DNA from: a virus
Length of the DNA: 64,000 nt
IMG/VR virus record: IMGVR_UViG_3300037722_000409
Coordinates: 1 to 64,000 of that record
Direction: 5' to 3' (one strand)
Of this stretch, positions 13,932 to 26,438 are shown piece by piece. The notes below the pieces were generated by a model, which was not told where the DNA came from, did no database searches, and worked only from the letters and a program-made list of their open reading frames with translations. Both the position numbers and the translations under genes were made by a program. Position 1 is the stretch's first letter. Each line of letters begins with the position of its first letter.

Positions 13932-14322
13932 CGTGGACGAGTGCTTCGCGCACCAGGTAGAGTTCAGCGACGTGGTGCTAGCGCACAAGGGCGTCATCTC
14001 TAAAGACATGACCCGTGAGCAGCTCATCGACTGGACCGAGTATAATCTATTTAACGTGGTCAAGGAAGCTTGCGAGGTGACTGGAAACTACGAGTGGAAG
14101 CGGCACCGGGCGTCTAAAGGTGCACATGACATCCCCGCGGTAATCGACGAGCTGGTGGATGTTCAAAAGTACCTCTGGAACGTCTTTGCGCTCTGGGGCG
14201 TCCGCACACCTGAACAATTCACCACGGCGTTCGCCAAAAAGTCTGGAGTGGTTCTCGACCGTTGGGCGTCTGAAAAGGAGCAAGTTCTTGCCGACAATAC
14301 AGACACGCACGCATCTCGATAA
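13924..14322 (+). CDS. All-alpha NTP pyrophosphatase (dimeric dUTPase/dCTPase/MazG superfamily)
   Basis: ExxE (KEACEV), WKRH, DELVDVQKY motifs. Confidence 0.75.
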   Translation: MRNVDECFAHQVEFSDVVLAHKGVISKDMTREQLIDWTEYNLFNVVKEACEVTGNYEWKRHRASKGAHDIPAVIDELVDVQKYLWNVFALWGVRTPEQFTTAFAKKSGVVLDRWASEKEQVLADNTDTHASR

Positions 14323-16129
14323 GCTGCTTAAGTTTGTCCGAGAGGCCAAGGTAGTCATCGTTGACACGGAGACAACCGGCCTAAAGCCGTGGGAAGATGA
14401 CCGCCTTATCGGAATAGGCATCGGCCTGGAGGCCAAGCACGAGTTCTACCTTCCGTTTCGGCATGACGCTGGGCTCAACCTGTCCATAGAGTGGTTACCG
14501 GAGGTCCTGGACGCTCTAGCTCAGGCTGGTACCTTAGTCGCCCACAATATCAAGTTTGACCTGGCGATGCTCTACCAAGATGGGTACAGAGCACCTGTCA
14601 CTCAACGGTTTGAGGACACCATGTCAGCCGCTCGGCTGTGCGAGCCAGACCGCTATGCTAAGCTCGGTCTGACTCCTCTTCTGGAAAAGTACCTAGGGGC
14701 TGAGTACGCCGCGTACGACCACGAGTTTGTCGCGGCCTTGCGGGCCCTTAAGCTCACCAAGAGGACTATGCAGGCGTCCCCTATCGACCTCTGCGGCAAG
14801 TACTGTGAAAACGACGTGCAAGGAACGCGAAGCTTGCGCCAGATATTTAACCGTATCTTGCGGGAGACGGAGCAGTGGTCGCTCTGGCAGCAAGAGGTAG
14901 ATACCACGCGCGCCTTGTGGGAAATGGAGGCCACCGGTGTCGGGTTCAACAAGGTGTATGGTGAGTACATTGTCCCCATCCTCGAGCAGAAGATCGAGCT
15001 CATAAAGGGCGAGCTAAACACCTTGGCGGGGCAAGAGTTCAACCCGAACTCTACACCACAACTCGGAAAGGTGATGGCCAACCTAGGCCTACACTCGCCT
15101 AAGACAGGAAAGTCAGGGGCGGCGTGCTGGGAAAAAGAAGTGCTAGAGCTCTTCGAGCACAAGCACCCCCTGCCAAAGAAGCTTTTGGAGCTCCGCAGCA
15201 TTCAAAAGGTCTGCGGTACCGACATTCGTCCCAGGCTCGAGCGCGGGTTAGACGTGCTGCATGAGGAGATAAAGCCGTTCGGCGCTATCACCGGCCGTAT
15301 GTCCTCAGGGTTGCACACCTTTCCACGTGACGGCATCATGGTTCACGACGAGGTGGTGTCTCCGCGTAACCTAATTATCCCCCGCGACGGCTACGACCTA
15401 TACTTCGCGGACTACTCTCAAATGGAGATGCGGGTGTTCGCCGACTACATGGGTGACCCGGGCCTATTGAAGAAGATCGAGGCTGGGGGTCTGGACTACC
15501 ACGACCTGGTCGCCAAGGAAGTCTGGCACGTTGACGAGAGTGATCCTGACTGGAAGGAGTTTCGCCGCAAAGCCAAGGCCATCAACTTCGGACTGGTGTA
15601 CGGAATCGGCGACAAGAAGCTATCCGCAGACCTTGGAGTTTCACTCTCAGAGGGTCGAGAGTACAAGCGTGAGTACTTCGAGCGGATGCCTCGCGCTGAG
15701 CCGTTTATCCGAATGGTCGGAAAGATCGCGGAAGCACGAGGCTACGTGCGCAACAGGTTTAACCGACGGTACTGGATAGACCCTCACCGCGTCTACGTGG
15801 CCGTTAACTACCTGGTGCAAGGCACGAGCGCGGACCTCATGAAGAACCGGATCGTCGCCATACAGAACTACATCTGGGCCAACCGTCTTAAGTCACGCAT
15901 GCTGCTCCAGGTGCACGACGAGGTCATCTTCGAGGTTCACAAGAGTGAGACCCAGTTCTTCGTAAAGAAGGTCCACGCGCTCCTTGAAGAGCGACTACTC
16001 ACCGTCAAGCTGGCGGTCGACATCTCTATAGGCAACCCCGGGTGGGGCAGCAAGCTGGAGCTCGCGTGGTGCTCTACTCAGGACCGGTATCACTCGAAAA
16101 AAGAACACCGTGAGCTATGTGTACACTAA
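14288..16129 (+). CDS. polA: Family A DNA polymerase with 3'-5' exonuclease (no 5'-3' exonuclease)
   Basis: DTETTG, HNIKFD, YCEND; motif A ADYSQMEMR, motif B RRKAKAINFGLVYG, motif C VHDE; TTG start after AAGGAG. Confidence 0.95.
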   Translation: MPTIQTRTHLDKLLKFVREAKVVIVDTETTGLKPWEDDRLIGIGIGLEAKHEFYLPFRHDAGLNLSIEWLPEVLDALAQAGTLVAHNIKFDLAMLYQDGYRAPVTQRFEDTMSAARLCEPDRYAKLGLTPLLEKYLGAEYAAYDHEFVAALRALKLTKRTMQASPIDLCGKYCENDVQGTRSLRQIFNRILRETEQWSLWQQEVDTTRALWEMEATGVGFNKVYGEYIVPILEQKIELIKGELNTLAGQEFNPNSTPQLGKVMANLGLHSPKTGKSGAACWEKEVLELFEHKHPLPKKLLELRSIQKVCGTDIRPRLERGLDVLHEEIKPFGAITGRMSSGLHTFPRDGIMVHDEVVSPRNLIIPRDGYDLYFADYSQMEMRVFADYMGDPGLLKKIEAGGLDYHDLVAKEVWHVDESDPDWKEFRRKAKAINFGLVYGIGDKKLSADLGVSLSEGREYKREYFERMPRAEPFIRMVGKIAEARGYVRNRFNRRYWIDPHRVYVAVNYLVQGTSADLMKNRIVAIQNYIWANRLKSRMLLQVHDEVIFEVHKSETQFFVKKVHALLEERLLTVKLAVDISIGNPGWGSKLELAWCSTQDRYHSKKEHRELCVH

Positions 16130-16566
16130 ATAACTACTGCCAATGTGGCTGCGGAGCTGTGGTAAAAAAGAGATTTGTGCACGGGCACACCTGGAAGGGG
16201 AAAAAACTGCCTGAGAAAACCAGGGCAAAGATACGCACCAGCCTCATGGGCCACACGAACTCTGACGAGGCCAAGGCGAAGATGAGTATCAGCCACACGA
16301 GCCTTACGCCTTCTGAGGAAACTCGAGCAAATATGGGCGCAGCCCGAAAAAGAAACTGGGACAGTATTACGCCGGCTTTAGGAAGTAAGCAAAATAGTAA
16401 TAAAATTACCGAATTGCAGTTTTGGGGTCTTGTGGTCCTGCAAAAAGCGAGATGCTGGATGTGCTTGTACCCTTTAGCGGAGAGGGGCTCAATTGTCGTT
16501 GACCACGATCATGAGACCGGAGTTGTTCGAGGGATTGCTCATAGGATTTGTAACTTAAACTGGTAA
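16117..16566 (+). mobile_element. Free-standing homing endonuclease (NUMOD3-like repeats + endonuclease VII-type HNH), possibly truncated
   Basis: CQCGCG, repeated S/PEETRAKM, CWMC...VDHDHETG.VRG..H..CN; visibly AT-richer than flanks. Confidence 0.7.
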
Positions 16567-18949: not shown

Positions 18950-19473
18950 CCACAAGCTCTGAGTCTCTCCAAGAACCCCAACAGACGGTGTGGGACCGTA
19001 TAATCACCCAAGCCCGGCAACGCTTGGTGAGCGTCGGCTATCCGATTCCCGTTAAGCCCAAGACCCCGATAAACGACCTTCAGCTTCCCGAAGACGTCGA
19101 GGCCTTGAATCCTATACAGCTGGCCAACCTACTCATGCGGTTGCAAGCGTGGTACGCCTACAGCACCGCCCAGCTGGCCTTCGCCAGGGCGGAGCTTCAC
19201 GCCTTCGACGAGTACTTCTCGATCGAGCTTGGTGACAAGATGAACTCCCTCGCCTCCCTGACTGAGGGACGCCCCACCAAAGACGTGTTGAAAGCACTGG
19301 CTCTCAAGACCACCGCGGTTGGGGCCATGTTTACCCGCAAGCTCGGGTTGGAACAACGAGCGGAGCTCATTGAAGGAATGGTTCAGAGCCTCAGCATCCA
19401 GTGCAAGGCCCTGACCACGGAGCAAATTCGACGACACGCCGCACAAAAATTAAGTCACGGAGAGAGCTTCTAA
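18946..19473 (+). CDS. Helical protein, possible UvsY-like recombination mediator
   Basis: Coiled-coil ORF after RecA and nucleases; inference from context. Confidence 0.4.
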   Translation: MTTSSESLQEPQQTVWDRIITQARQRLVSVGYPIPVKPKTPINDLQLPEDVEALNPIQLANLLMRLQAWYAYSTAQLAFARAELHAFDEYFSIELGDKMNSLASLTEGRPTKDVLKALALKTTAVGAMFTRKLGLEQRAELIEGMVQSLSIQCKALTTEQIRRHAAQKLSHGESF

Positions 19474-20555
19474 TGGCAAGAACAGCACTAGGATGCCACA
19501 TCTATTCTGGCGGCTTTACTATCGGCATGGAGAAGAACTTCGAGATCATCGGACAGTTGGAAGAGGGCCCGTGGGGCGCCAAGACGTTTGACCTGAACTA
19601 CCCCAGTGTGCCACACCCACTCAATAAGGCCGAGTGGGACATTCCAAACTACAAGAACTTTGTCAACGTCGTCTACGCCAATCCCCCTTGCGCGTGCTGG
19701 AGCGCCATCGGTGCCCGGCTTGGAAAGGCTGACCCACGCCTCCAGTTTACCTACAACTCCGCTAACCTGGCCTTGGCGGTAGAGCCCCAGTTTTTCGTGG
19801 TGGAAAGCGTGTGCCGCGCCTGGACTGCTGGTCGTGAGGTGTACGAAGAGATAGCTGAGCAGTTTCGGCAGAAGGGATACGCGATCACGTTCTTGCTGAC
19901 CAACGGTATACTGCACGGGTCGCCGCAGTCACGAGAGAGGTTTCACCTCATCGCCCACAAGTACGCCTTACCCTTAGAAACACCAGCGATGCCCGCACAC
20001 ATGCCCACGGTAATGGAGCTCATCGGCGACCTGGCCGGCACACACGCTTGGCTTGGTGAAGGAGCTTCTTCTGCACTGAACCACGTGGTACGGCGTCCGA
20101 CCGACATGGAGGTGGAAGTCTACAAGCGACTTACCGCTAGCGGCAACTACAGCAAGATCGTGGAGGAGCTCAATGCCGCTGGTGTCCCGGCACGTAAAGG
20201 ACGATTGTTAAACGGCCGATTGTACGCCGACGCGTACTCTCGGACACTCGTTGACTTGGGCTGCGTGATTCACCCGACCGAGAACCGCTTGATTACCCTT
20301 CGTGAGGGCGCCCGCTTGTGCACCTACCCAGACACCTTTGAGTTCGCAAGCGACTCTAAGAACCGTGAGTTTGGCGTGGCAGCCACTGATGTTACCCAGG
20401 CGGTGATGCCTGCCATGGGAGCTTTCTTCAGCGACTTGTTTGCACAGGCCATGGACAACGAGGCTCCCGCCTCAGGTACCCAAGAGATCGACTGGCGGTC
20501 CATAGCACGTCCGTTCACCCCAGGCCGGTACGCTCGAACTATGGGGTGGCGCTAA
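19473..20555 (+). CDS. Divergent C5-cytosine DNA methyltransferase-like protein
   Basis: Motif I IYSGGF, IV NPPC, VI ESV (normally ENV), [34 protein letters not shown]. Confidence 0.8.
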
Positions 20556-20613: not shown

Positions 20614-21681
20614 TTGAGTAAAATACGCGTAGCAATTGTTGGGGTTGGTAATTGCGCGTCCTCACTGGTTCAGGGTATCTACAAGTACCAGGGCATCGCA
20701 GACGACACCCATGTCCCCGGCGTGATGCACAACAAGATCGGGTCCTATCGGATAAGCGACATAGAGATAGTGGCAGCGTTCGACGTCAACGAAACGAAGG
20801 TGGGAAAAGACGTCTCGACGGCCATCTACGCCGAGCCCAACAACACCTTGCGGTTCTTCGATGTCCCCTTCATGGGCGTCACAGTCCAGAAGGGCGAGGT
20901 AAACGACGGCATCGGCCAGTACCTTGAAGAGGTGATCACCATCTCTAAGGAGAAGCCAGTAGACGTGGCCCAGGTCCTCCAAGAGCGAGCGGTCGACGTA
21001 TTGATCAACTATCTGCCGGTCGGCAGTGAGAAGGCGACCGTTCACTACATCTTGGCCGCGCTTGAGTCCCACGTCGCCGTGGTGAACTGCATCCCAGTCT
21101 TCATCGCCAACAATCCTGAATGGAACGACGTCTTTATTCAGGCGGGAGTGCCCATCGTTGGTGACGACATCAAGTCTCAGGTCGGGGCGACCATCGTGCA
21201 CCGGGTACTGGCCAACCTGTTCGGTGACCGCGGCGTGGACATCGACAAGACCTTCCAGCTGAACTTTGGGGGAAATACCGACTTCCTGAACATGCTGGAA
21301 CGTGAGCGCTTAAAGTCAAAGAAGATCTCTAAGACCCAGGCGGTCACCTCGCAGATTCAGCACGACATAAAGGCCAATCAAGTGCACGTGGGACCCAGCG
21401 ACTTCGTGCCTTGGCTGAAGGACGAGAAGTGGTGCGAGATCTACATGAACGGAGAGCTGTTCGGTGGAGCGCCCATGTCGGTCGAGGTCAAACTGAAGGT
21501 GCATGACAGTCCCAACTCCGCTGGTGTTGTGGTGGACGCCGTACGGTGCGCTAAATTGGCCCTTGACCGCGGTATTGGTGGGTCAGTGACCGCCGCCAGC
21601 GCCTTCTTCATGAAGTCACCCAACATCCAGTACACGGACAGTGAAGCCAAGACGATGTTGGAGGAGTTCATCCGTGGGTAG
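20614..21681 (+). CDS. ino1: myo-inositol-1-phosphate synthase
   Basis: [66 protein letters not shown]. Confidence 0.97.
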
Positions 21682-22306
21682 AGCAGTTATCTTCGACCTC
21701 GATGGAACTCTGGCCGACAGCATGGAGGCGTACGGGCAGTACGCCTCTACTCTTATGGCCGACACGTACAGCATCTCTTTGACAAGCGCCCTGCGCGGGT
21801 ACTTTGCGACCGCGGGAATGCCCTTCGGGGATCAACTTCAAGCGTTGTTTCCGAATCACCCCTCCAACAGGTTGGTGGCGCGGTCTTTCGCCGAGTTCAA
21901 AGAGGACTATCAAGACGCTATACACCTCTACGACGATGCCATAGCCGCGTGCAGGACGCTCAAAGACTGCGGATACGGCGTGGCGGTGTGTAGCAGCACT
22001 GATGTACCCTTGGTTCTGCACCTGCTAAAGACCAGGGGGATTCTTTCCCTGATTGATAACATCAGCGGTCAAGACGCGCGCAATCTCTCGAAGCTTCAAC
22101 GGCTGCAAGCCTTGGTTGAGCTCTTCAAGGGCCCCGTCACGTTTGTCGGTGACACGGTGTACGACGCTGACGTGGCTAAGCGCGCCAACATCAATTTTGT
22201 AGGAGTCACGCACACCATTGACGGCCAGAGCTTCGCGGCGCTAAACGTTCCGTTTGCCGCCACCTTGACCGCCGTCGTGCAGAGGATAGTGAAGCATGGA
22301 AATTAA
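21674..22306 (+). CDS. HAD-superfamily phosphatase
   Basis: [21 protein letters not shown]; GTG start overlapping the ino1 stop. Confidence 0.9.
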
Positions 22307-23270
22307 CCACAACACGATGTTCACGGAGTTCTGCCGGTTAGAGCTGAGCACAGGCGGGCCAGACCCTCAGGTAGAGATAATCGCCCAAGCTGGGCAGGGG
22401 GAACAAGAGAAGGGGTGGCTTGCTGGATGCTTTATAGGACCCTACACCGTCGGAGCCGCCGCAGCCCTCAACGCCGGGACCACTCGCGCGAAGGTTCTGC
22501 AGGACCCAGCTGGCCTTACAACGTGGATCGGTCGTAACTGGGCAGGCTTGCCGATACGTCGTGAACGGCGAGCGGTCTGGAAGATAGAGAAGCTCTCCGA
22601 GTGCCTACACAGCTACGCCGTGTGGTCGGAGTATACCCTTCCCGGCCTGATTTACGCCTCCTTTGACACGGTCTGGGACTCTCTCGATAAAGAGGTACGG
22701 TACGTCGGGCGGTACGCCTCGATGAAGCTGATAGAGGTGCTGTACCGCCAGAACTTGCTGCAAAACGCGCGGCAAGACAGCATCGTGCCTGACGGAGCGT
22801 GGAGCCCGCGCAAGACTCTTGGTCTTTTGCACCCGGAGGACGTAGCTGAGTTCCCAGGCTTGCTGACCGGCAACAGCGTCGCTACACTGCAGCGTGTCAA
22901 CGAGGTGGCCAACACACGACGGCTTACCTTGAACAAGGACCTGAACACGACGGTGTCTTTCTTCGACTACGAGACGATGCTCTGCAACTACCGACAAGCC
23001 CTGAAGGGAAAGTACCCAGGCCGGTCTCACGACCGTGAGCTGGCCTACTACATCAAGGCGTTCTCAGTCTCTAGTCAGCGCGACGACTCCTTCCCGTTCG
23101 CCAAGATACGGCGAGAGCGGTTCAATAACCACTGCCTGGGGGAGCTAAACGGGTGGGGTGGAGCGCGCAAAGAGCTCGAGACCATCTTTGACGACCATGG
23201 GTACTTCTGGTGCGACACCGTTTTCGACTACAAGAATACCGCGGACTTTGCCAACCCCGTACGATGGTAA
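22296..23270 (+). CDS. DNA-base transferase, aGPT-PPlase2 / amino acid:DNA transferase family (HhH glycosylase-like fold)
   Basis: GGPDP, LPIRRERR, VGRYASMKLIEVL, ETMLCNYR...GKYPGRSHD, LGELNGWGGARKE; context with P-loop kinase and TS homologue. Confidence 0.75.
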   Translation: MEINHNTMFTEFCRLELSTGGPDPQVEIIAQAGQGEQEKGWLAGCFIGPYTVGAAAALNAGTTRAKVLQDPAGLTTWIGRNWAGLPIRRERRAVWKIEKLSECLHSYAVWSEYTLPGLIYASFDTVWDSLDKEVRYVGRYASMKLIEVLYRQNLLQNARQDSIVPDGAWSPRKTLGLLHPEDVAEFPGLLTGNSVATLQRVNEVANTRRLTLNKDLNTTVSFFDYETMLCNYRQALKGKYPGRSHDRELAYYIKAFSVSSQRDDSFPFAKIRRERFNNHCLGELNGWGGARKELETIFDDHGYFWCDTVFDYKNTADFANPVRW

Positions 23271-23298: not shown

Positions 23299-23721
23299 AT
23301 GAAGGTCTACACCGTTATTGAAGATCAGTTGTTTATGCGGCCCGAGTTCCACAAGCTGAAGAACAAGATCGTTGATCTTCAAGCCCTGAAGATAGACACG
23401 GTGTTCTGCATGCTTCAACGTGGCGACGCAGACCTGCCCGGCGTGGTCGAGTACATTCACCGCCCACTTCCTGACGGCAAGACCATCGATATTCCCTACG
23501 TCTACTCTATAGTGGACGAGGTCGAGAACTGCCTGTCTCAAGGAAAGCGCGTCCTGGTCCACTGCATCGCCGGCAAGAACCGCTCAGGGCTAATCTGCGC
23601 CTTGACTGTTCGTCGAGCGCTAGGGTTATCTGGCGCTGCAGCTGTCGCCCACGTACGCCACTGCCGACCCGGGGCTCTCACCAATCCCTATTTCGTCGAG
23701 TACCTAGAGAAACTTTTATAG
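23299..23721 (+). CDS. Cys-based (PTP/dual-specificity) phosphatase
   Basis: PLPD, HCIAGKNRS (CX5R), VRHCRPGALTNPYF. Confidence 0.9.
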   Translation: MKVYTVIEDQLFMRPEFHKLKNKIVDLQALKIDTVFCMLQRGDADLPGVVEYIHRPLPDGKTIDIPYVYSIVDEVENCLSQGKRVLVHCIAGKNRSGLICALTVRRALGLSGAAAVAHVRHCRPGALTNPYFVEYLEKLL

Positions 23722-23732
23722 AGAGGGGGCTT

Positions 23733-24293
23733 ATGCTTATTAACGTGCGTGGAACTAATGGTAGCGGAAAGTCTACCGCGGTACGCTATCTTCTGGACAC
23801 CTACGGCAACACCAACAAGATCGAGCAAGAGGGGTGGCGCAAGACCAGCGCCTCCGTCGTAGGATACAGACTGCCAGGCAACTTGATCATCGCCGGCCGC
23901 TACGAGTACTTTCAGATGGGCGGACTGGACGGCTTCAAGTACGCCAAGATGTGGGAGGAACTGCTGCCCGCTCTGGCGGCCGAGGCGGACCACTTGGTCT
24001 TTGAGAGCATCCTCATCTCCGGAAACGTCGGGCGTGGGAAGGCTCTGGCCGCGCAGTTTCCCTGCACCTTCGCCTTCATGGACACCACCGCTGACGAGTG
24101 CATCCGGCGCATATACGCCCGCAACGGCGGGGCCGAGTTCAAGGAAAAGCTGGTGCGAGACACTCACGGGCGCATGCAGGTGATCAAGCGCAACTTCACG
24201 GCTCAAGGCGAGCTGGTAACCGAGATCCACGACGGGCCTGGTCTAGAGGCGCTGCTTCGTCAGAACGGGTGGAACCCGTCTACTGGAGTATAA
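23733..24293 (+). CDS. P-loop kinase, 5-hydroxymethylpyrimidine DNA kinase-like
   Basis: INVRGTNGSGKST, GRYE...GGLDG, VFESILIS, ECIRRIYARNG. Confidence 0.7.
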   Translation: MLINVRGTNGSGKSTAVRYLLDTYGNTNKIEQEGWRKTSASVVGYRLPGNLIIAGRYEYFQMGGLDGFKYAKMWEELLPALAAEADHLVFESILISGNVGRGKALAAQFPCTFAFMDTTADECIRRIYARNGGAEFKEKLVRDTHGRMQVIKRNFTAQGELVTEIHDGPGLEALLRQNGWNPSTGV

Positions 24294-24299
24294 TAGCTT

Positions 24300-25244
24300 A
24301 TGTGGATACTTCTTGAAGGCGCTGACGGAGTTGGTAAGTCAACCCTTGCACGTAACCTTTGCAGCCAGCATGGATACGACTACCTGCACTTCGGGGTTCC
24401 AGACAGTCACCCTATCGACTACTGGATGCGTGAGGGGCTTGAGGCAGCTCGGGACAACCACGTCATCGACCGGCTCCACCTGAGCGAGGAAGCCTACGGA
24501 CAGGTATATCGTGGCGGGTCCAAGCTCACCGAGCACCAGTTTTGGCTCTTGGAAGGGTGGCTTTGGGCGCGCAACACCATCTTGGTACTGTGCACCACCT
24601 CCTGGGAGAACATGCGTGAGAACCAGACCAAGGTCAAGGGCGTGTACCACGACGAGCGCCAGAAGCAGATCGTGAGCGAGTTTACGAAGCTGATAACTCG
24701 CACCTCCCTTCCCCTGTGTATCTATAACTACACTCACCATAACGGAGTGCTTCCCCCAGCGCGGGTGGTTATCAGCCCCCTCACTGGTCATGACGCCAGC
24801 TACACCCTATATGACGCCTTGCACCGTCGTGACTCAGCGGTAGATTTTAACGACGCCGGAATCGGCTCTGTTCAACCAAGGGTGTGGCTAGTGGGCGACC
24901 AGCCCAACCCGAAACGAGAGGCCCCTGTCACCGCCTTGTTTCAACCCCCGTTCCAGAGTTCCAGCGGAGAGTATCTACGAAAAGCTGTAGACTCACCGTA
25001 CTTTTGGTCAGACCATCACGTAAGCAACTCCCGCGACGTAGAGGGTCAGCCTTACGACCTCCCAGTAACGTGGGAGCGTCTTGGGCGCCCAAGTATCGTG
25101 GCTCTTGGCAATAACTCAGCCAAGGCCTTAACGGCCGCCAAGCTGCCCTACAACAAGGTGCCCCACCCGCAGTGGTGGCGCCGATTCCAGCACAACAATA
25201 CGGAGGGATACCGCAGTGCAATTGAACACGCATCTCGAAGCTGA
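24300..25244 (+). CDS. dNMP kinase fused to a UDG-superfamily-like domain
   Basis: LEGADGVGKST, IDRLHLSE.AYG; C-terminal LVGDQP..PF..SSG.YL...IVALGN...PHPQW. Confidence 0.75.
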   Translation: MWILLEGADGVGKSTLARNLCSQHGYDYLHFGVPDSHPIDYWMREGLEAARDNHVIDRLHLSEEAYGQVYRGGSKLTEHQFWLLEGWLWARNTILVLCTTSWENMRENQTKVKGVYHDERQKQIVSEFTKLITRTSLPLCIYNYTHHNGVLPPARVVISPLTGHDASYTLYDALHRRDSAVDFNDAGIGSVQPRVWLVGDQPNPKREAPVTALFQPPFQSSSGEYLRKAVDSPYFWSDHHVSNSRDVEGQPYDLPVTWERLGRPSIVALGNNSAKALTAAKLPYNKVPHPQWWRRFQHNNTEGYRSAIEHASRS

Positions 25245-26151
25245 CCACATGGACGAGCTATACCCTATGATCCTCGAGTATATTCTCGAGCACGGTGACA
25301 TGGTCAGTCCCCGTGGGTTACTTACCAGAGAGGTCCGGCCCCTGTCGTTCACCTTGACCAACCCGCTGAACCGGGCTGTCACCTTGAAAGAGCGCAAGAT
25401 GAACCATGCGTTCGGCTTGATCGAGGCGCTCCAGTTTACCAGTGGAACCACCAACGGCGCCCAGCAGATACGGTACAACAGCAACATCAAGAACTGGGTA
25501 GACCCGATATCTGGCGAGATCGAGGCAGCGTACGGGGTCTTAACAGCCCCTCAAGTTCCGTACGTGATCGAGACTCTGACCAAAGACCCTGACAGCCGCC
25601 AGGCGATCCTTTCAATCTACAACGGACAGTTACACCAGCGCCCGATGTTGAACGTCCCGTGCACCTGCACCTTGCAGTTCTTCCTGAGACAAGGAGCCCT
25701 CGAGCTGGTCGTGTACATGCGGTCGAACGACGTTTGGTGGGGTACCCCCTACGACGTGTTCCAGTTCACCGCCATGCAAGAGATGATCGCCTGCGCTCTT
25801 GGCGCACGGCTGGGTAAATACACTCACACCGCCGGCAGCTCCCACGTCTACGAGCCGTTCTTTGAGAGCGCGGCCACCTTGATACATAACCATGGCGTGC
25901 GTGATCAAGCGGCGCAGAGTTTCATTGGCCAAGACCCCCTGTTCCCGACCACGAAGACTTCTCTAGTTGTGCTTCGCAACAGTGCCCGGGCCGTACTGGT
26001 TGCTGAGGTCATAGTGCACGGGTCACAGCGCGAACGAGACCACGTGTTAACCACCTGGAACGACAACACTACTGTGTGCGCGGATCCATTTAACGCGCAC
26101 ATAAAGACCCTCTGCGAGTACCAAGACAGCAAAATTATACGGAGGAAATAA
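25216..26151 (+). CDS. Thymidylate synthase-family enzyme, probable dCMP hydroxymethylase
   Basis: DPDSRQA, VPCT, MRSND, GTPYD (Asp at the Asn177-equivalent position), GSSHVYE. Confidence 0.8.
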   Translation: MQLNTHLEADHMDELYPMILEYILEHGDMVSPRGLLTREVRPLSFTLTNPLNRAVTLKERKMNHAFGLIEALQFTSGTTNGAQQIRYNSNIKNWVDPISGEIEAAYGVLTAPQVPYVIETLTKDPDSRQAILSIYNGQLHQRPMLNVPCTCTLQFFLRQGALELVVYMRSNDVWWGTPYDVFQFTAMQEMIACALGARLGKYTHTAGSSHVYEPFFESAATLIHNHGVRDQAAQSFIGQDPLFPTTKTSLVVLRNSARAVLVAEVIVHGSQRERDHVLTTWNDNTTVCADPFNAHIKTLCEYQDSKIIRRK

Positions 26152-26153
26152 CC

Positions 26154-26438
26154 ATGGAAAACACCGGCATTAGACCCCTGGGACCCCGCCTGGCAGTTCA
26201 ATTGATGACTGTTAGGGAAACCACCCGCGATAGCGGCATCATTCTCTCCCAGACCGACTCAGTGGACACCTACAAGGCCGAGGTCATCGTGATCGGCCCC
26301 ATGGTAAAGTTCATCAAGGCCGGCGAGATCGTACTGCTGACCGTGGGCGCCATACAGGGCGCGATCTTCGAACACAACCAGCAGCACTACGCCATGGTCT
26401 TCGAGGGCGACGTTCTGGCCGTGCTGGACCGGTCCTAG
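26154..26438 (+). CDS. groES: GroES-like co-chaperonin
   Basis: IRPLGPRLAV, T.SGIIL, VIVIGP...KAGEIV, EGDVLAVL. Confidence 0.85.
   Translation: MENTGIRPLGPRLAVQLMTVRETTRDSGIILSQTDSVDTYKAEVIVIGPMVKFIKAGEIVLLTVGAIQGAIFEHNQQHYAMVFEGDVLAVLDRS

What the first reader, a model, noticed from the sequence alone, without database searches (positions are those of the whole stretch)
25216..26151. TS homologue carries the cytosine-specifying Asp, so the modified base may be C rather than T
Seen: RSNDVWWGTPYDVFQF. Established: the residue equivalent to E. coli ThyA Asn177 (GLPFN) selects dUMP, whereas Asp is found in dCMP/CMP hydroxymethylases (T4 gp42, MilA). Characterised kinase/AADT pathways act on 5hmU. 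Inference: this phage makes 5hm-dCMP and applies the phosphorylate-and-displace chemistry to 5hmC. No dCMP deaminase (typical of 5hmU phages) is visible in this window.
Basis: partly seen in the sequence, partly recalled or inferred. Interest (0 to 1): 0.75.

Follow-up and report, generated by a model that had tools for sequence, protein, structure and literature searches.

The report
Cytosine-type hydroxymethylase feeding a kinase/transferase pathway
An uncultured 92-kb phage encodes a thymidylate-synthase relative built to modify cytosine rather than uracil nucleotides, and it is always wired to DNA-kinase and transferase genes known so far only from thymine hypermodification, so the phage probably makes an undescribed decorated cytosine in its DNA.

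Summary
ORF 25216-26151 is an intact thymidylate-synthase-family enzyme, and Asp180 aligns with E. coli ThyA Asn177 and T4 gp42 Asp179. The Asp is clade-wide (252 of 253 nearest database relatives). Five characterised dUMP hydroxymethylases carry Asn there and form a separate clade. The best sequence and fold match is MilA, a cytosine-nucleotide hydroxymethylase.

The AADT/phosphatase/5-HMUDK/C5-methyltransferase-like module recurs in over 20 viral or metagenomic loci. Wherever a TS gene is seen, it is the only one and it is Asp-type. The complete genome has no deaminase, dUTPase, TET or second TS.

Two corrections are needed:
- **Hydroxymethyl product not secure.** The window's sub-clade has Asn146 where hydroxymethylases have a water-activating Asp, and T4 D145N is inactive.
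- **"No deaminase" argument weak.** It is true here, but several relatives with the same module couple a dCMP deaminase to the TS gene.

My best reading (about 0.5) is dCMP to 5hm-dCMP to 5hmC in DNA, then phosphorylation and displacement, probably by an inositol-derived nucleophile.

The scan noted similar modules earlier on other genomes. Burke et al. 2021 speculated about a 5hmC kinase. No chemistry has been shown.

The parts
25216..26151 (+). TS-superfamily enzyme, cytosine type. Probable dCMP C5-hydroxymethylase. Signature at ThyA positions L143/H147/D169/N177 is N-T-D-D.
   Evidence: Pfam PF00303 at 2e-26. Best PDB sequence hit is MilA at 3e-25. AF2 model has pLDDT 91.7, and the best fold match is MilA at TM 0.72 over the full length. 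Alignments.
25753..25755 (+). Codon GAC for Asp180, the equivalent of ThyA Asn177 and T4 gp42 Asp179 (pyrimidine specificity determinant).
   Evidence: Asp in 252 of 253 homologues.
25651..25653 (+). [quoted passage not shown] This is the position of the water-activating Asp145 of T4 dCMP hydroxymethylase and of ThyA Leu143.
   Evidence: Asn in all 14 members of the window's sub-clade and Asp in 228 other relatives. T4 D145N is inactive (PMC6400193).
25660..25662 (+). Codon TGC for the catalytic Cys149 (ThyA Cys146).
24300..25244 (+). Fusion protein. The N-terminal part is a dNMP/thymidylate-kinase-like P-loop kinase (about residues 1-148). The C-terminal part is a family-4 UDG-like domain (about residues 186-314). 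It is the probable kinase for the modified dNMP.
   Evidence: phrog_761 thymidylate kinase at 2e-11. AF2 pLDDT 82.9, with fold hits to YorR, dNK and TMPK, and to T. maritima UDG and UdgX. A homologue lies directly upstream of the TS gene in 49 of 80 related loci.
23733..24293 (+). 5-HMUDK-family P-loop kinase (DNA hydroxymethyl-pyrimidine kinase homologue).
   Evidence: Pfam PF18748 at 2.4e-10, 40.7 bits against a cut-off of 27. Homologous to ViI gp67 and conserved in the module.
23299..23721 (+). Dual-specificity (CX5R) phosphatase. A constant member of the module; its substrate is unknown.
   Evidence: Pfam DSPc at 3e-10. Always lies between the AADT and HMUDK genes in relatives.
22296..23270 (+). 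AADT / aGPT-Pplase clade-2 homologue (group transferase acting on phosphorylated hydroxymethyl-pyrimidine in DNA).
   Evidence: Pfam PF18724 at 1.1e-6, 29 bits against a cut-off of 26.2. The E226-T227-x-x-C230 motif aligns with the catalytic motif of M6 gp51 and PaMx11 PUGT (PMC8989533, PMC11472151).
21641..22306 (+). HAD-family phosphatase, overlapping both the MIPS and AADT genes.
   Evidence: Pfam HAD_2 at 9e-18. Conserved in L060, L073, L095 and L121.
20614..21681 (+). myo-Inositol-1-phosphate synthase, the probable source of the nucleophile.
   Evidence: Pfam PF01658 at 6e-36. Homologues at 1e-140 to 1e-149 lie directly upstream of (HAD-)AADT in L016, L060, L094, L095, L099, L120 and L121.
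19401..20555 (+). C5-cytosine DNA methyltransferase-like protein of a distinct subfamily (PC and QxRxR kept; ENV replaced by ESV; atypical motif I).
   Evidence: Pfam PF00145 at 9e-29. Alignment. Present in 11 of 11 AADT loci with enough sequence, and in L120, L121, L124, L126 and L170. Absent from 5 reference 5hmU phages.
14159..16129 (+). Family-A DNA polymerase with 3'-5' exonuclease. It would incorporate the modified dNTP.
   Evidence: Pfam DNA_pol_A at 6e-72.

Best explanation
The ORF encodes a thymidylate-synthase-superfamily enzyme that acts on dCMP, not dUMP. It most likely adds a hydroxymethyl group at C5 to give 5hm-dCMP.

**Proposed pathway** (every step is inferred from sequence and context; none is shown chemically):
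1. The TS homologue converts dCMP to 5hm-dCMP.
2. The kinase half of the upstream fusion protein makes the diphosphate, and host NDP kinase makes the triphosphate.
3. The phage family-A polymerase puts 5hmC into DNA. Replacement is probably partial, because no dCTPase is encoded.
4. The 5-HMUDK homologue phosphorylates the hydroxymethyl group in the DNA.
5. The AADT homologue attacks C6 with Cys230 and expels phosphate.
6. A nucleophile then adds to the exocyclic methylene. In this phage it is most likely myo-inositol or inositol phosphate, made by the co-transcribed inositol-phosphate synthase and HAD phosphatase.
7. The CX5R phosphatase would trim a phosphate.
8. The role of the C5-methyltransferase-like protein is open.

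The end product would be a hypermodified cytosine. This would be a cytosine counterpart of the known thymidine hypermodification pathway.
For: **Sequence and structure**
- Asp180 aligns with ThyA N177, T4 gp42 D179 and the MilA Asp. Five known dUMP hydroxymethylases have Asn there.
- ThyA position 147 is Thr, as in T4 gp42. It is Asn in all five dUMP hydroxymethylases. MetaGPA found positions 177 and 147 to be the two most discriminating for cytosine-modified DNA, with Asp177 enriched on C-modified contigs (PMC8670742).
- Asp occurs in 252 of 253 nearest homologues.
- In the tree the known U-type enzymes form one clade that excludes the window enzyme.
- The AF2 model matches MilA over its full length, including the C-terminal helices, at TM 0.72. 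Thymidylate synthases reach about 0.57 on the core only.
- Asp172 (D169) is retained, so this is not a 5-hydroxy-dCMP synthase (PMC13326640).
- Ser170 and Arg128 match the deoxynucleotide enzymes rather than MilA.

**Genomic context**
- 14 IMG/VR loci carry the window-type AADT. Seven of the seven records with any TS gene have exactly one, and it is Asp-type.
- All 10 metagenome loci of the window's own sub-clade have HMUDK, kinase fusion and TS contiguous.
- A C5-cytosine methyltransferase-like gene is a constant module member and is absent from five reference 5hmU phages.

**Gene content**
- The complete genome has no dCMP deaminase, dUTPase, TET/JBP, ThyX or second TS.
- The same module occurs in genomes with a deaminase (G001, G010) and without one (the window genome, G013).
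Against: - Asn146 replaces the Asp or Glu that lies three residues before the catalytic Cys. That acidic residue is the published hydroxymethylase signature, and T4 D145N makes no 5hm-dCMP (PMC6400193). The Xp12 dCMP methylase also has Asn there. The sub-clade also has Trp at the ThyA Trp83 position, which is TS-like.
- Every characterised 5-HMUDK and AADT acts on 5hmU (PMC8989533).
- The window AADT keeps the E-T-x-x-C motif. In PaMx11 PUGT the Glu and Thr of this motif hold a metal that contacts thymine O4 (PMC11472151).
- Several relatives with the same module have a dCMP deaminase overlapping the TS gene. This would allow 5hm-dCMP to be converted to 5hm-dUMP.
- A C5-methyltransferase needs unsubstituted cytosine, so replacement cannot be complete if that protein methylates.
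- No chemical data exist, and the phage is uncultured.
Confidence: 0.5

Rival explanations
1. The enzyme is a dCMP methyltransferase like that of Xp12 and makes 5-methyl-dCMP. The neighbouring kinase and transferase genes would then act on something else, or would need an unrecognised oxidase.
For: Asn146 sits at the water-activating position, exactly as in the Xp12 dCMP methylase. Trp94 sits at the ThyA Trp83 position. Both changes are fixed in the 14-member sub-clade. T4 D145N cannot hydroxymethylate.
Against: - The enzyme lacks the TS/Xp12-type C-terminal tail needed for hydride transfer. It has MilA-like C-terminal helices instead.
- In the tree it does not group with Xp12 and ThyA.
- No TET/JBP oxidase is encoded that could make a hydroxyl for the adjacent DNA kinase.
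- All sub-clade members sit directly next to 5-HMUDK, which needs a hydroxymethyl group.
- The nearest relative with the same gene order (L107) has the canonical Asp.
Confidence: 0.13
2. The pathway ends in hypermodified thymine. 5hm-dCMP made by this enzyme is deaminated to 5hm-dUMP by a host enzyme (in relatives, by the phage dCMP deaminase). It is then incorporated opposite A and processed by 5-HMUDK and AADT as in M6 or ViI.
For: - Characterised 5-HMUDK and AADT enzymes use 5hmU (PMC8989533).
- The AADT keeps the E-T-x-x-C motif tied to O4 recognition.
- In G001, G010, G003 and G005 a dCMP deaminase overlaps the 3' end of the Asp-type TS gene.
Against: - This complete genome and G013 have no deaminase, yet they keep the whole module.
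- None of the 10 loci of the window's sub-clade has a deaminase.
- Asp-type TS plus deaminase is the T4 arrangement, and in MetaGPA it is enriched on cytosine-modified contigs.
- A cytosine-directed C5-methyltransferase-like protein is part of the module and is absent from 5hmU phages.
Confidence: 0.15
3. Despite the Asp, the enzyme is a dUMP hydroxymethylase, and the phage runs an ordinary thymidine hypermodification pathway.
For: The closest annotated phage homologues by tblastn include the SP10 and SPO1-type dUMP hydroxymethylases at 31-37% identity. The neighbouring genes belong to T-hypermodification families.
Against: - Swapping Asn and Asp at this position switches dUMP/dCMP preference in E. 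coli and L. casei TS and in T4 gp42 (Hardy & Nalivaika 1992; Liu & Santi 1992; Graves et al. 1992, as cited in PMC8670742 and PMC13326640).
- All five known dUMP hydroxymethylases have Asn177 and Asn147 and form their own clade.
- No enzyme that would supply dUMP is encoded.
Confidence: 0.07
4. The enzyme is a flavin-dependent 5-hydroxy-dCMP synthase like RB69 gp48, and the kinase acts on 5-hydroxycytosine.
For: It is an Asp177-type TS homologue with a cognate nucleotide kinase next to it, as in RB69 and DLP3 (PMC13326640).
Against: The diagnostic D169N change is absent. Asp172 is invariant here and in all 253 relatives. No glycosyltransferases are present.
Confidence: 0.03

Closest known systems
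T4 gp42 dCMP hydroxymethylase (with gp1 dNMP kinase)
   Same: It has Asp at the ThyA-177 position, Thr at 147 and Asp at 169. It has the same catalytic Cys, Glu and Tyr. It lacks the TS C-terminal tail. A cognate dNMP kinase acts on its product.
   Different: It is very divergent and sits on a long branch in the tree. T4 has the essential Asp145 where the window enzyme has Asn146. T4 glucosylates 5hmC, whereas here the downstream genes are a DNA kinase and a transferase. T4 removes dCTP with gp56, and no dCTPase is found here.
MilA, CMP 5-hydroxymethylase of mildiomycin biosynthesis (PDB 5jnh, 5b6d)
   Same: It is the best sequence hit (E=3e-25) and the best fold hit (TM 0.72), including the C-terminal helical extension. 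It has Asp at position 177.
   Different: MilA carries Lys133 and Ala176, which favour the ribonucleotide. The window enzyme has Arg128 and Ser170, as the deoxynucleotide enzymes do. MilA has Asp at the 143 position. It belongs to bacterial antibiotic biosynthesis, not phage DNA modification.
Phage dUMP hydroxymethylases (SPO1 gp29, SP10, M6, ViI, PhiW-14)
   Same: They are 31-37% identical phage TS homologues. They supply the hydroxymethyl-pyrimidine for 5-HMUDK/AADT-type hypermodification.
   Different: All have Asn at positions 177 and 147 and Asp at position 143, and they form a separate clade. Their genomes lack the C5-methyltransferase-like gene, the CX5R phosphatase and the inositol genes.
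Thymidine hypermodification pathway: 5-HMUDK plus AADT/aGPT-Pplase2 (M6 gp54/gp51, ViI gp67/gp247, PaMx11 gp46/gp47)
   Same: Both Pfam families are present above their cut-offs. The catalytic Cys and the neighbouring Glu of the transferase are retained. The logic of phosphorylation followed by displacement is the same.
   Different: The matches are distant (E=2e-10 and 1e-6). The source enzyme is cytosine-type. The module adds a CX5R phosphatase, a C5-methyltransferase-like protein and, in many members, inositol-phosphate synthase with a HAD phosphatase in place of PLP, radical-SAM or FAD tailoring enzymes.
Xp12 dCMP methyltransferase
   Same: It has Asp at position 177 and Asn at the 143-equivalent position.
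   Different: Xp12 keeps the TS-like C-terminus, has Pro at position 147, and groups with ThyA in the tree.
RB69 gp48 / DLP3 gp80 5-hydroxy-dCMP synthases
   Same: They are Asp177-type TS homologues paired with a nucleotide kinase.
   Different: They carry the D169N signature and use a flavin. The window enzyme keeps Asp172.

Membership tests
Thymidylate synthase superfamily (PF00303) | The TS fold, with the catalytic Cys, the phosphate-binding Arg residues, and the Glu58, Tyr94, Asp169, His207 and Tyr209 equivalents. | tested here: met
   Pfam 93 bits against a cut-off of 24.3. All residues are present. AF2 pLDDT is 91.7 and the model matches TS and MilA structures.
dCMP hydroxymethylase (T4 gp42 type) | Asp at the ThyA Asn177 position (cytosine specificity). 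| tested here: met
   Asp180 lies in that column.
dCMP hydroxymethylase (T4 gp42 type) | [quoted passage not shown] This is the published signature (PMC6400193). | tested here: not met
   The residue is Asn146 (AAC at 25651-25653). Asn is found in all 14 sub-clade members and Asp in 228 other relatives.
dCMP hydroxymethylase (T4 gp42 type) | No TS-type C-terminal tail that closes over the folate for hydride transfer. | tested here: met
   The C-terminus is a roughly 85-residue helical extension that superposes on MilA. There is no ThyA- or Xp12-like terminal motif.
dCMP hydroxymethylase (T4 gp42 type) | Converts dCMP and methylene-THF to 5hm-dCMP. | not testable with these tools
   This needs an enzyme assay, or expression followed by LC-MS.
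dUMP hydroxymethylase (SPO1 gp29 type) | Asn at the ThyA-177 position (uracil specificity). Asn at position 147 is seen in all five references. | tested here: not met
   The window has Asp180 and Thr150. It lies outside the U-type clade.
5-hydroxy-dCMP synthase (RB69 gp48 type) | The D169N substitution (PMC13326640). | tested here: not met
   Asp172 is retained.
dCMP methyltransferase (Xp12 type) | Asp177 combined with a non-acidic residue at position 143 and a TS-like C-terminal tail. | tested here: inconclusive
   Asp180 and Asn146 fit. The C-terminus and the tree position do not.
MilA-type CMP hydroxymethylase | Ala at ThyA Ser167 and Lys at Arg126, giving ribonucleotide preference. | tested here: not met
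   The window has Ser170 and Arg128.
5-HMUDK / AADT hypermodification system | [quoted passage not shown] | tested here: met
   PF18748 at 40.7 bits and PF18724 at 29 bits, both above their cut-offs. The E226..C230 motif aligns with M6 gp51. The genes are contiguous with the TS gene.
5-HMUDK / AADT hypermodification system | The substrate base in DNA is 5-hydroxymethyluracil. | not testable with these tools
   The context argues for 5hmC instead: the only TS is Asp-type, there is no deaminase, and a C5-methyltransferase-like partner is present. No chemistry is available.

The most novel reading that the evidence does not exclude
This phage group makes the first cytosine-based hypermodification by phosphorylation and displacement. 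5hmC in DNA is phosphorylated by a 5-HMUDK relative, and an AADT relative attaches an inositol-derived group. The pathway is started by a natural Asn-variant hydroxymethylase that activates water differently from T4 gp42, and it is assisted by a C5-methyltransferase-like protein that does something other than methylation.
Probability: 0.35. Interest if true: 0.85.

Novelty: new variant of a known kind. Interest (0 to 1): 0.7.

Why it matters
All characterised kinase/transferase DNA hypermodifications decorate thymine. Known cytosine hypermodifications are glycosyl or carbamoyl additions to 5hmC or 5hoC.

A conserved module that couples a cytosine-type TS homologue to 5-HMUDK and AADT relatives would extend this chemistry to cytosine. 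In many members it would add a new class of appended group, a cyclitol.

Such a modification would affect restriction and CRISPR evasion, sequencing of such phages, and enzyme tools for labelling 5hmC.

The Asn146 sub-clade is also a natural test of the proposed water-activation mechanism of pyrimidine hydroxymethylases.

Published metavirome surveys labelled TS genes next to these clusters as "dUMP hydroxymethylase". This finding shows that the residue at position 177 should be checked.

Tried and rejected
- I obtained contexts with the search for related loci instead.
- **5-HMUDK search.** The search for related loci with the single 5-HMUDK protein found nothing in IMG/VR. The AADT alignment worked.
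- **No close phage record.** A megablast of the cluster against GenBank phages gave no match.
- **Cultured phages.** The window-type AADT is essentially absent from them, with only a weak hit in Microbacterium phage Kozie. Inositol-phosphate synthase does occur in T4-like Stenotrophomonas and Caulobacter phages, but without this module. In Moby it lies in a queuosine cluster.
- **Pool enzymes.** No dCTPase family (MazG, PRA-PH, dUTPase_2) was found in this genome or in complete relatives. These enzymes do not help decide between C and U.
- **DNA-level deamination.** I considered post-replicative deamination of 5hmC to 5hmU by the SAM-motif-poor C5-methyltransferase-like protein. I rejected it because it would create G:hmU mismatches across the genome.
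- **5-hydroxy-dCMP synthase.** Rejected because Asp172 is retained.
- **Rest of the genome.** Pfam scans of 40 further ORFs found replication genes only and no additional nucleotide-metabolism or tailoring enzymes.
- **Literature.** Searches found no report of an inositol-linked DNA base, nor of a demonstrated 5hmC DNA kinase.
Full report
**What is there.**
The window is the first 64 kb of a 92,321-bp IMG/VR virus record that CheckV rates 100% complete. ORF 25216-26151 (+, 311 aa) is a thymidylate-synthase (TS) family protein (PF00303, E=2e-26; phrog_5131, E=2e-47). It is the only TS-family gene in the genome. The peptide RSNDVWWGTPYDVFQF lies at residues 169-184.

**The Asp.**
- In an L-INS-i alignment with reference enzymes taken from annotated records, Asp180 falls in the column of E. 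coli ThyA Asn177, T4 gp42 Asp179 and the Asp of the Xp12 dCMP methylase. Its codon is GAC at 25753-25755. The reference enzymes were E. coli ThyA, T4 gp42, SP10, an SPO1-like gp29, M6, PhiW-14, ViI and Xp12.
- HMMER aligns Asp180 with the corresponding Asp of MilA.
- All five dUMP hydroxymethylases have Asn there.
- The catalytic Cys149, Glu70, Tyr106, Arg33/128/169, Asp172, His210 and Tyr212 are all present.
- Asp occurs in 252 of 253 nearest homologues from two very large protein databases.

**Other diagnostic positions.**
Published work names further discriminating sites.
- *ThyA positions 147 and 177.* MetaGPA found these to be the two residues that best separate TS homologues on cytosine-modified contigs from the rest, with Asp177 on the modified contigs (PMC8670742). 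The window has Thr150 at position 147, as does T4 gp42. All five U-type hydroxymethylases have Asn there.
- *D169N.* 5-Hydroxy-dCMP synthases carry this change (PMC13326640). The window keeps Asp172.
- *Ribo versus deoxy.* MilA's ribonucleotide preference rests on Ala and Lys, where the window has Ser170 and Arg128, like the deoxynucleotide enzymes.

**Phylogeny and structure.**
- A quick maximum-likelihood tree puts the five known dUMP hydroxymethylases, plus the single Asn-type database hit, in one clade with moderate support. The window enzyme sits in a well-supported 13-row clade inside a larger Asp-type group.
- The AlphaFold model is confident (pLDDT 91.7).
- Its best structural match is MilA over the full length, including the C-terminal helices (TM 0.72). 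Thymidylate synthases match only the core (TM about 0.57).

- In T4 dCMP hydroxymethylase, Asp145 lies three residues before the catalytic Cys and activates the water that becomes the hydroxyl. D145N is inactive. The authors propose this acidic residue as the signature that separates hydroxymethylases from methylases (PMC6400193). PMC13326640 says the same of the L143 position.
- The window has Asn146 there (AAC at 25651-25653). So do all 14 members of its sub-clade, while 228 other relatives have Asp.
- The Xp12 dCMP methylase also has Asn at this position.
- The sub-clade has also changed Phe or Tyr to Trp at the ThyA Trp83 position.

Cytosine specificity is therefore well supported. The hydroxymethyl product is inferred mainly from context.

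**Context in the window.**
Eight contiguous, partly overlapping genes precede and include the TS gene:

| Coordinates | Product |
|---|---|
| 19401-20555 | C5-cytosine methyltransferase-like |
| 20614-21681 | myo-inositol-1-phosphate synthase (MIPS) |
| 21641-22306 | HAD phosphatase |
| 22296-23270 | AADT / aGPT-Pplase2 |
| 23299-23721 | CX5R dual-specificity phosphatase (DSP) |
| 23733-24293 | 5-HMUDK |
| 24300-25244 | kinase fusion protein |
| 25216-26151 | TS homologue |

- The kinase fusion folds into two domains: a YorR/thymidylate-kinase-like domain and a family-4 UDG-like domain.
- The AADT keeps the E-T-x-x-C motif that holds the catalytic Cys in M6 gp51 and PaMx11 PUGT (PMC8989533; PMC11472151).

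**Context elsewhere.**
- *80 IMG/VR loci with Asp-type homologues*. All carry the T4-like signature D-T-D-D. 49 have a kinase gene directly upstream. About 49 have a dCMP deaminase within 10 kb.
- *14 IMG/VR loci found with an AADT alignment*. Their gene order is MIPS-(HAD)-AADT-DSP-HMUDK, followed a few kb later by the C5-methyltransferase-like gene.
- *TS genes in those 14 records.* Seven of the 14 records contain a TS gene, and the others are fragments. Each of the seven has exactly one, and all are Asp-type, including both complete genomes.
- *The window's own sub-clade.* A metagenome scan with a sub-clade alignment recovered its 10 members (L118-L126, L170). Every one with enough sequence has HMUDK, kinase fusion and TS contiguous, with AADT-DSP and usually the methyltransferase-like gene upstream. 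None has a deaminase.
- *Inositol genes.* MIPS is present in L120 and L121 but not in L124 or L170, so the inositol branch is frequent but not universal.
- *Contrast with 5hmU phages.* None of five reference 5hmU phages has any C5-methyltransferase-family gene.

**Nucleotide-pool enzymes.**
- The complete genome has no dCMP deaminase. Pfam searches and a custom profile gave a best E of 1.4, against 49 control hits in the related loci.
- It also has no MafB19 deaminase, dUTPase, dUTPase_2, MazG, PRA-PH, TET/JBP or ThyX.
- Among relatives with the same module, G001, G010, G003 and G005 have a deaminase overlapping the TS gene, and G013 has none.

T4 also has a deaminase, and MetaGPA finds the deaminase domain on cytosine-modified contigs. 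The module persists with and without a deaminase, which argues that deamination is not part of the route to its DNA substrate.

**Interpretation.**
The most likely pathway is this:
1. dCMP is converted to 5hm-dCMP by the TS homologue.
2. The kinase fusion and host NDP kinase take it to the triphosphate.
3. The phage polymerase incorporates it. Replacement is partial, because no dCTPase is present.
4. The 5-HMUDK homologue phosphorylates 5hmC in DNA.
5. The AADT homologue replaces the phosphate with an inositol-derived nucleophile.

I put this at about 0.5.

| Rival | Probability |
|---|---|
| 5hmU route through deamination of 5hm-dCMP | 0.15 |
| dCMP methylase | 0.13 |
| True dUMP hydroxymethylase | 0.07 |
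| 5-hydroxy-dCMP synthase | 0.03 |

**What is already known.**
- Burke et al. 2021 speculated that a P-loop kinase might phosphorylate TET-made 5hmC in some metavirome contigs (PMC8256090).
- Lee et al. 2022 noted "dUMP hydroxymethylase" genes near such clusters, without reporting residue 177.
- I found no report of a demonstrated 5hmC DNA kinase or of an inositol-bearing DNA base.
- Earlier notes of this scan flagged the inositol operon and the odd methyltransferase on this same window. They also flagged similar modules on two other genomes. My results agree with them.

The TS enzyme itself is a new member of a known family. The pairing of a cytosine-type enzyme with the kinase/transferase chemistry is a new variant of a known kind of pathway.

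Noticed in passing
window 24300-25244: A fusion of a dNMP/thymidylate-kinase-like domain with a family-4 UDG-like domain. The UDG motifs are altered: GEAPG becomes VGDQPN and HPS becomes HPQ. Short (kinase only) or long (fused) homologues lie directly upstream of Asp-type TS genes in 49 of 80 viral loci. The role of the UDG-like half is unknown.
   Followed up: partly
window 19401-20555; L016:7802-8899; L095:13339-14592 and others: A distinct subfamily of C5-cytosine methyltransferase-like proteins. The catalytic PC and QxRxR are kept, ENV is always ESV, and motif I is atypical (H-[IG]-[YF]-[SA]-G-G). It is a constant member of the AADT/HMUDK module and is absent from five reference 5hmU phages. 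Whether it methylates residual C or does other chemistry on 5hmC is open.
   Followed up: partly
window 20614-22306: Inositol-1-phosphate synthase and a HAD phosphatase overlap each other and the AADT gene. MIPS homologues at E about 1e-140 to 1e-149 hold the same position in many related loci but are missing in L124 and L170. The appended group may therefore differ between lineages.
   Followed up: partly
L095:758-2126; L099:482-1832; L104:1009-2368: In one lineage of relatives, a dCMP deaminase gene overlaps the 3' end of the Asp-type TS gene, in the order kinase-TS-deaminase-PolA. The lineage of the window lacks the deaminase entirely.
   Followed up: yes
tree: The characterised Asn-type dUMP hydroxymethylases form a single clade nested among Asp-type enzymes. 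This suggests the uracil-specific phage hydroxymethylases arose once from cytosine-type ancestors. Support is moderate and the tree was built by the quick method.
   Followed up: no
L174 (Stenotrophomonas phage Moby 28981-30231); L175 (Caulobacter phage Cr30): Cultured T4-like phages also encode inositol-phosphate synthase. In Moby it sits inside a queuosine/deazaguanine gene cluster, without the window-type AADT.
   Followed up: no
window 16117-16566: A small ORF with Endonuclease VII and NUMOD3 motifs lies between the DNA polymerase and RecA genes. It looks like a homing-endonuclease-type insertion.
   Followed up: no
window 26154-26438: A GroES (Cpn10) homologue immediately follows the TS gene. 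It is conserved in the close relatives L118-L121 and L170.
   Followed up: no
L064:9857-10759 and flank: Another Asp-type (D-T-D-D) TS locus carries an M6 gp51-like aGPT-Pplase (E=3e-22) and a C5-methyltransferase-like gene. It is a possible second, independent pairing of a cytosine-type enzyme with a transferase.
   Followed up: no
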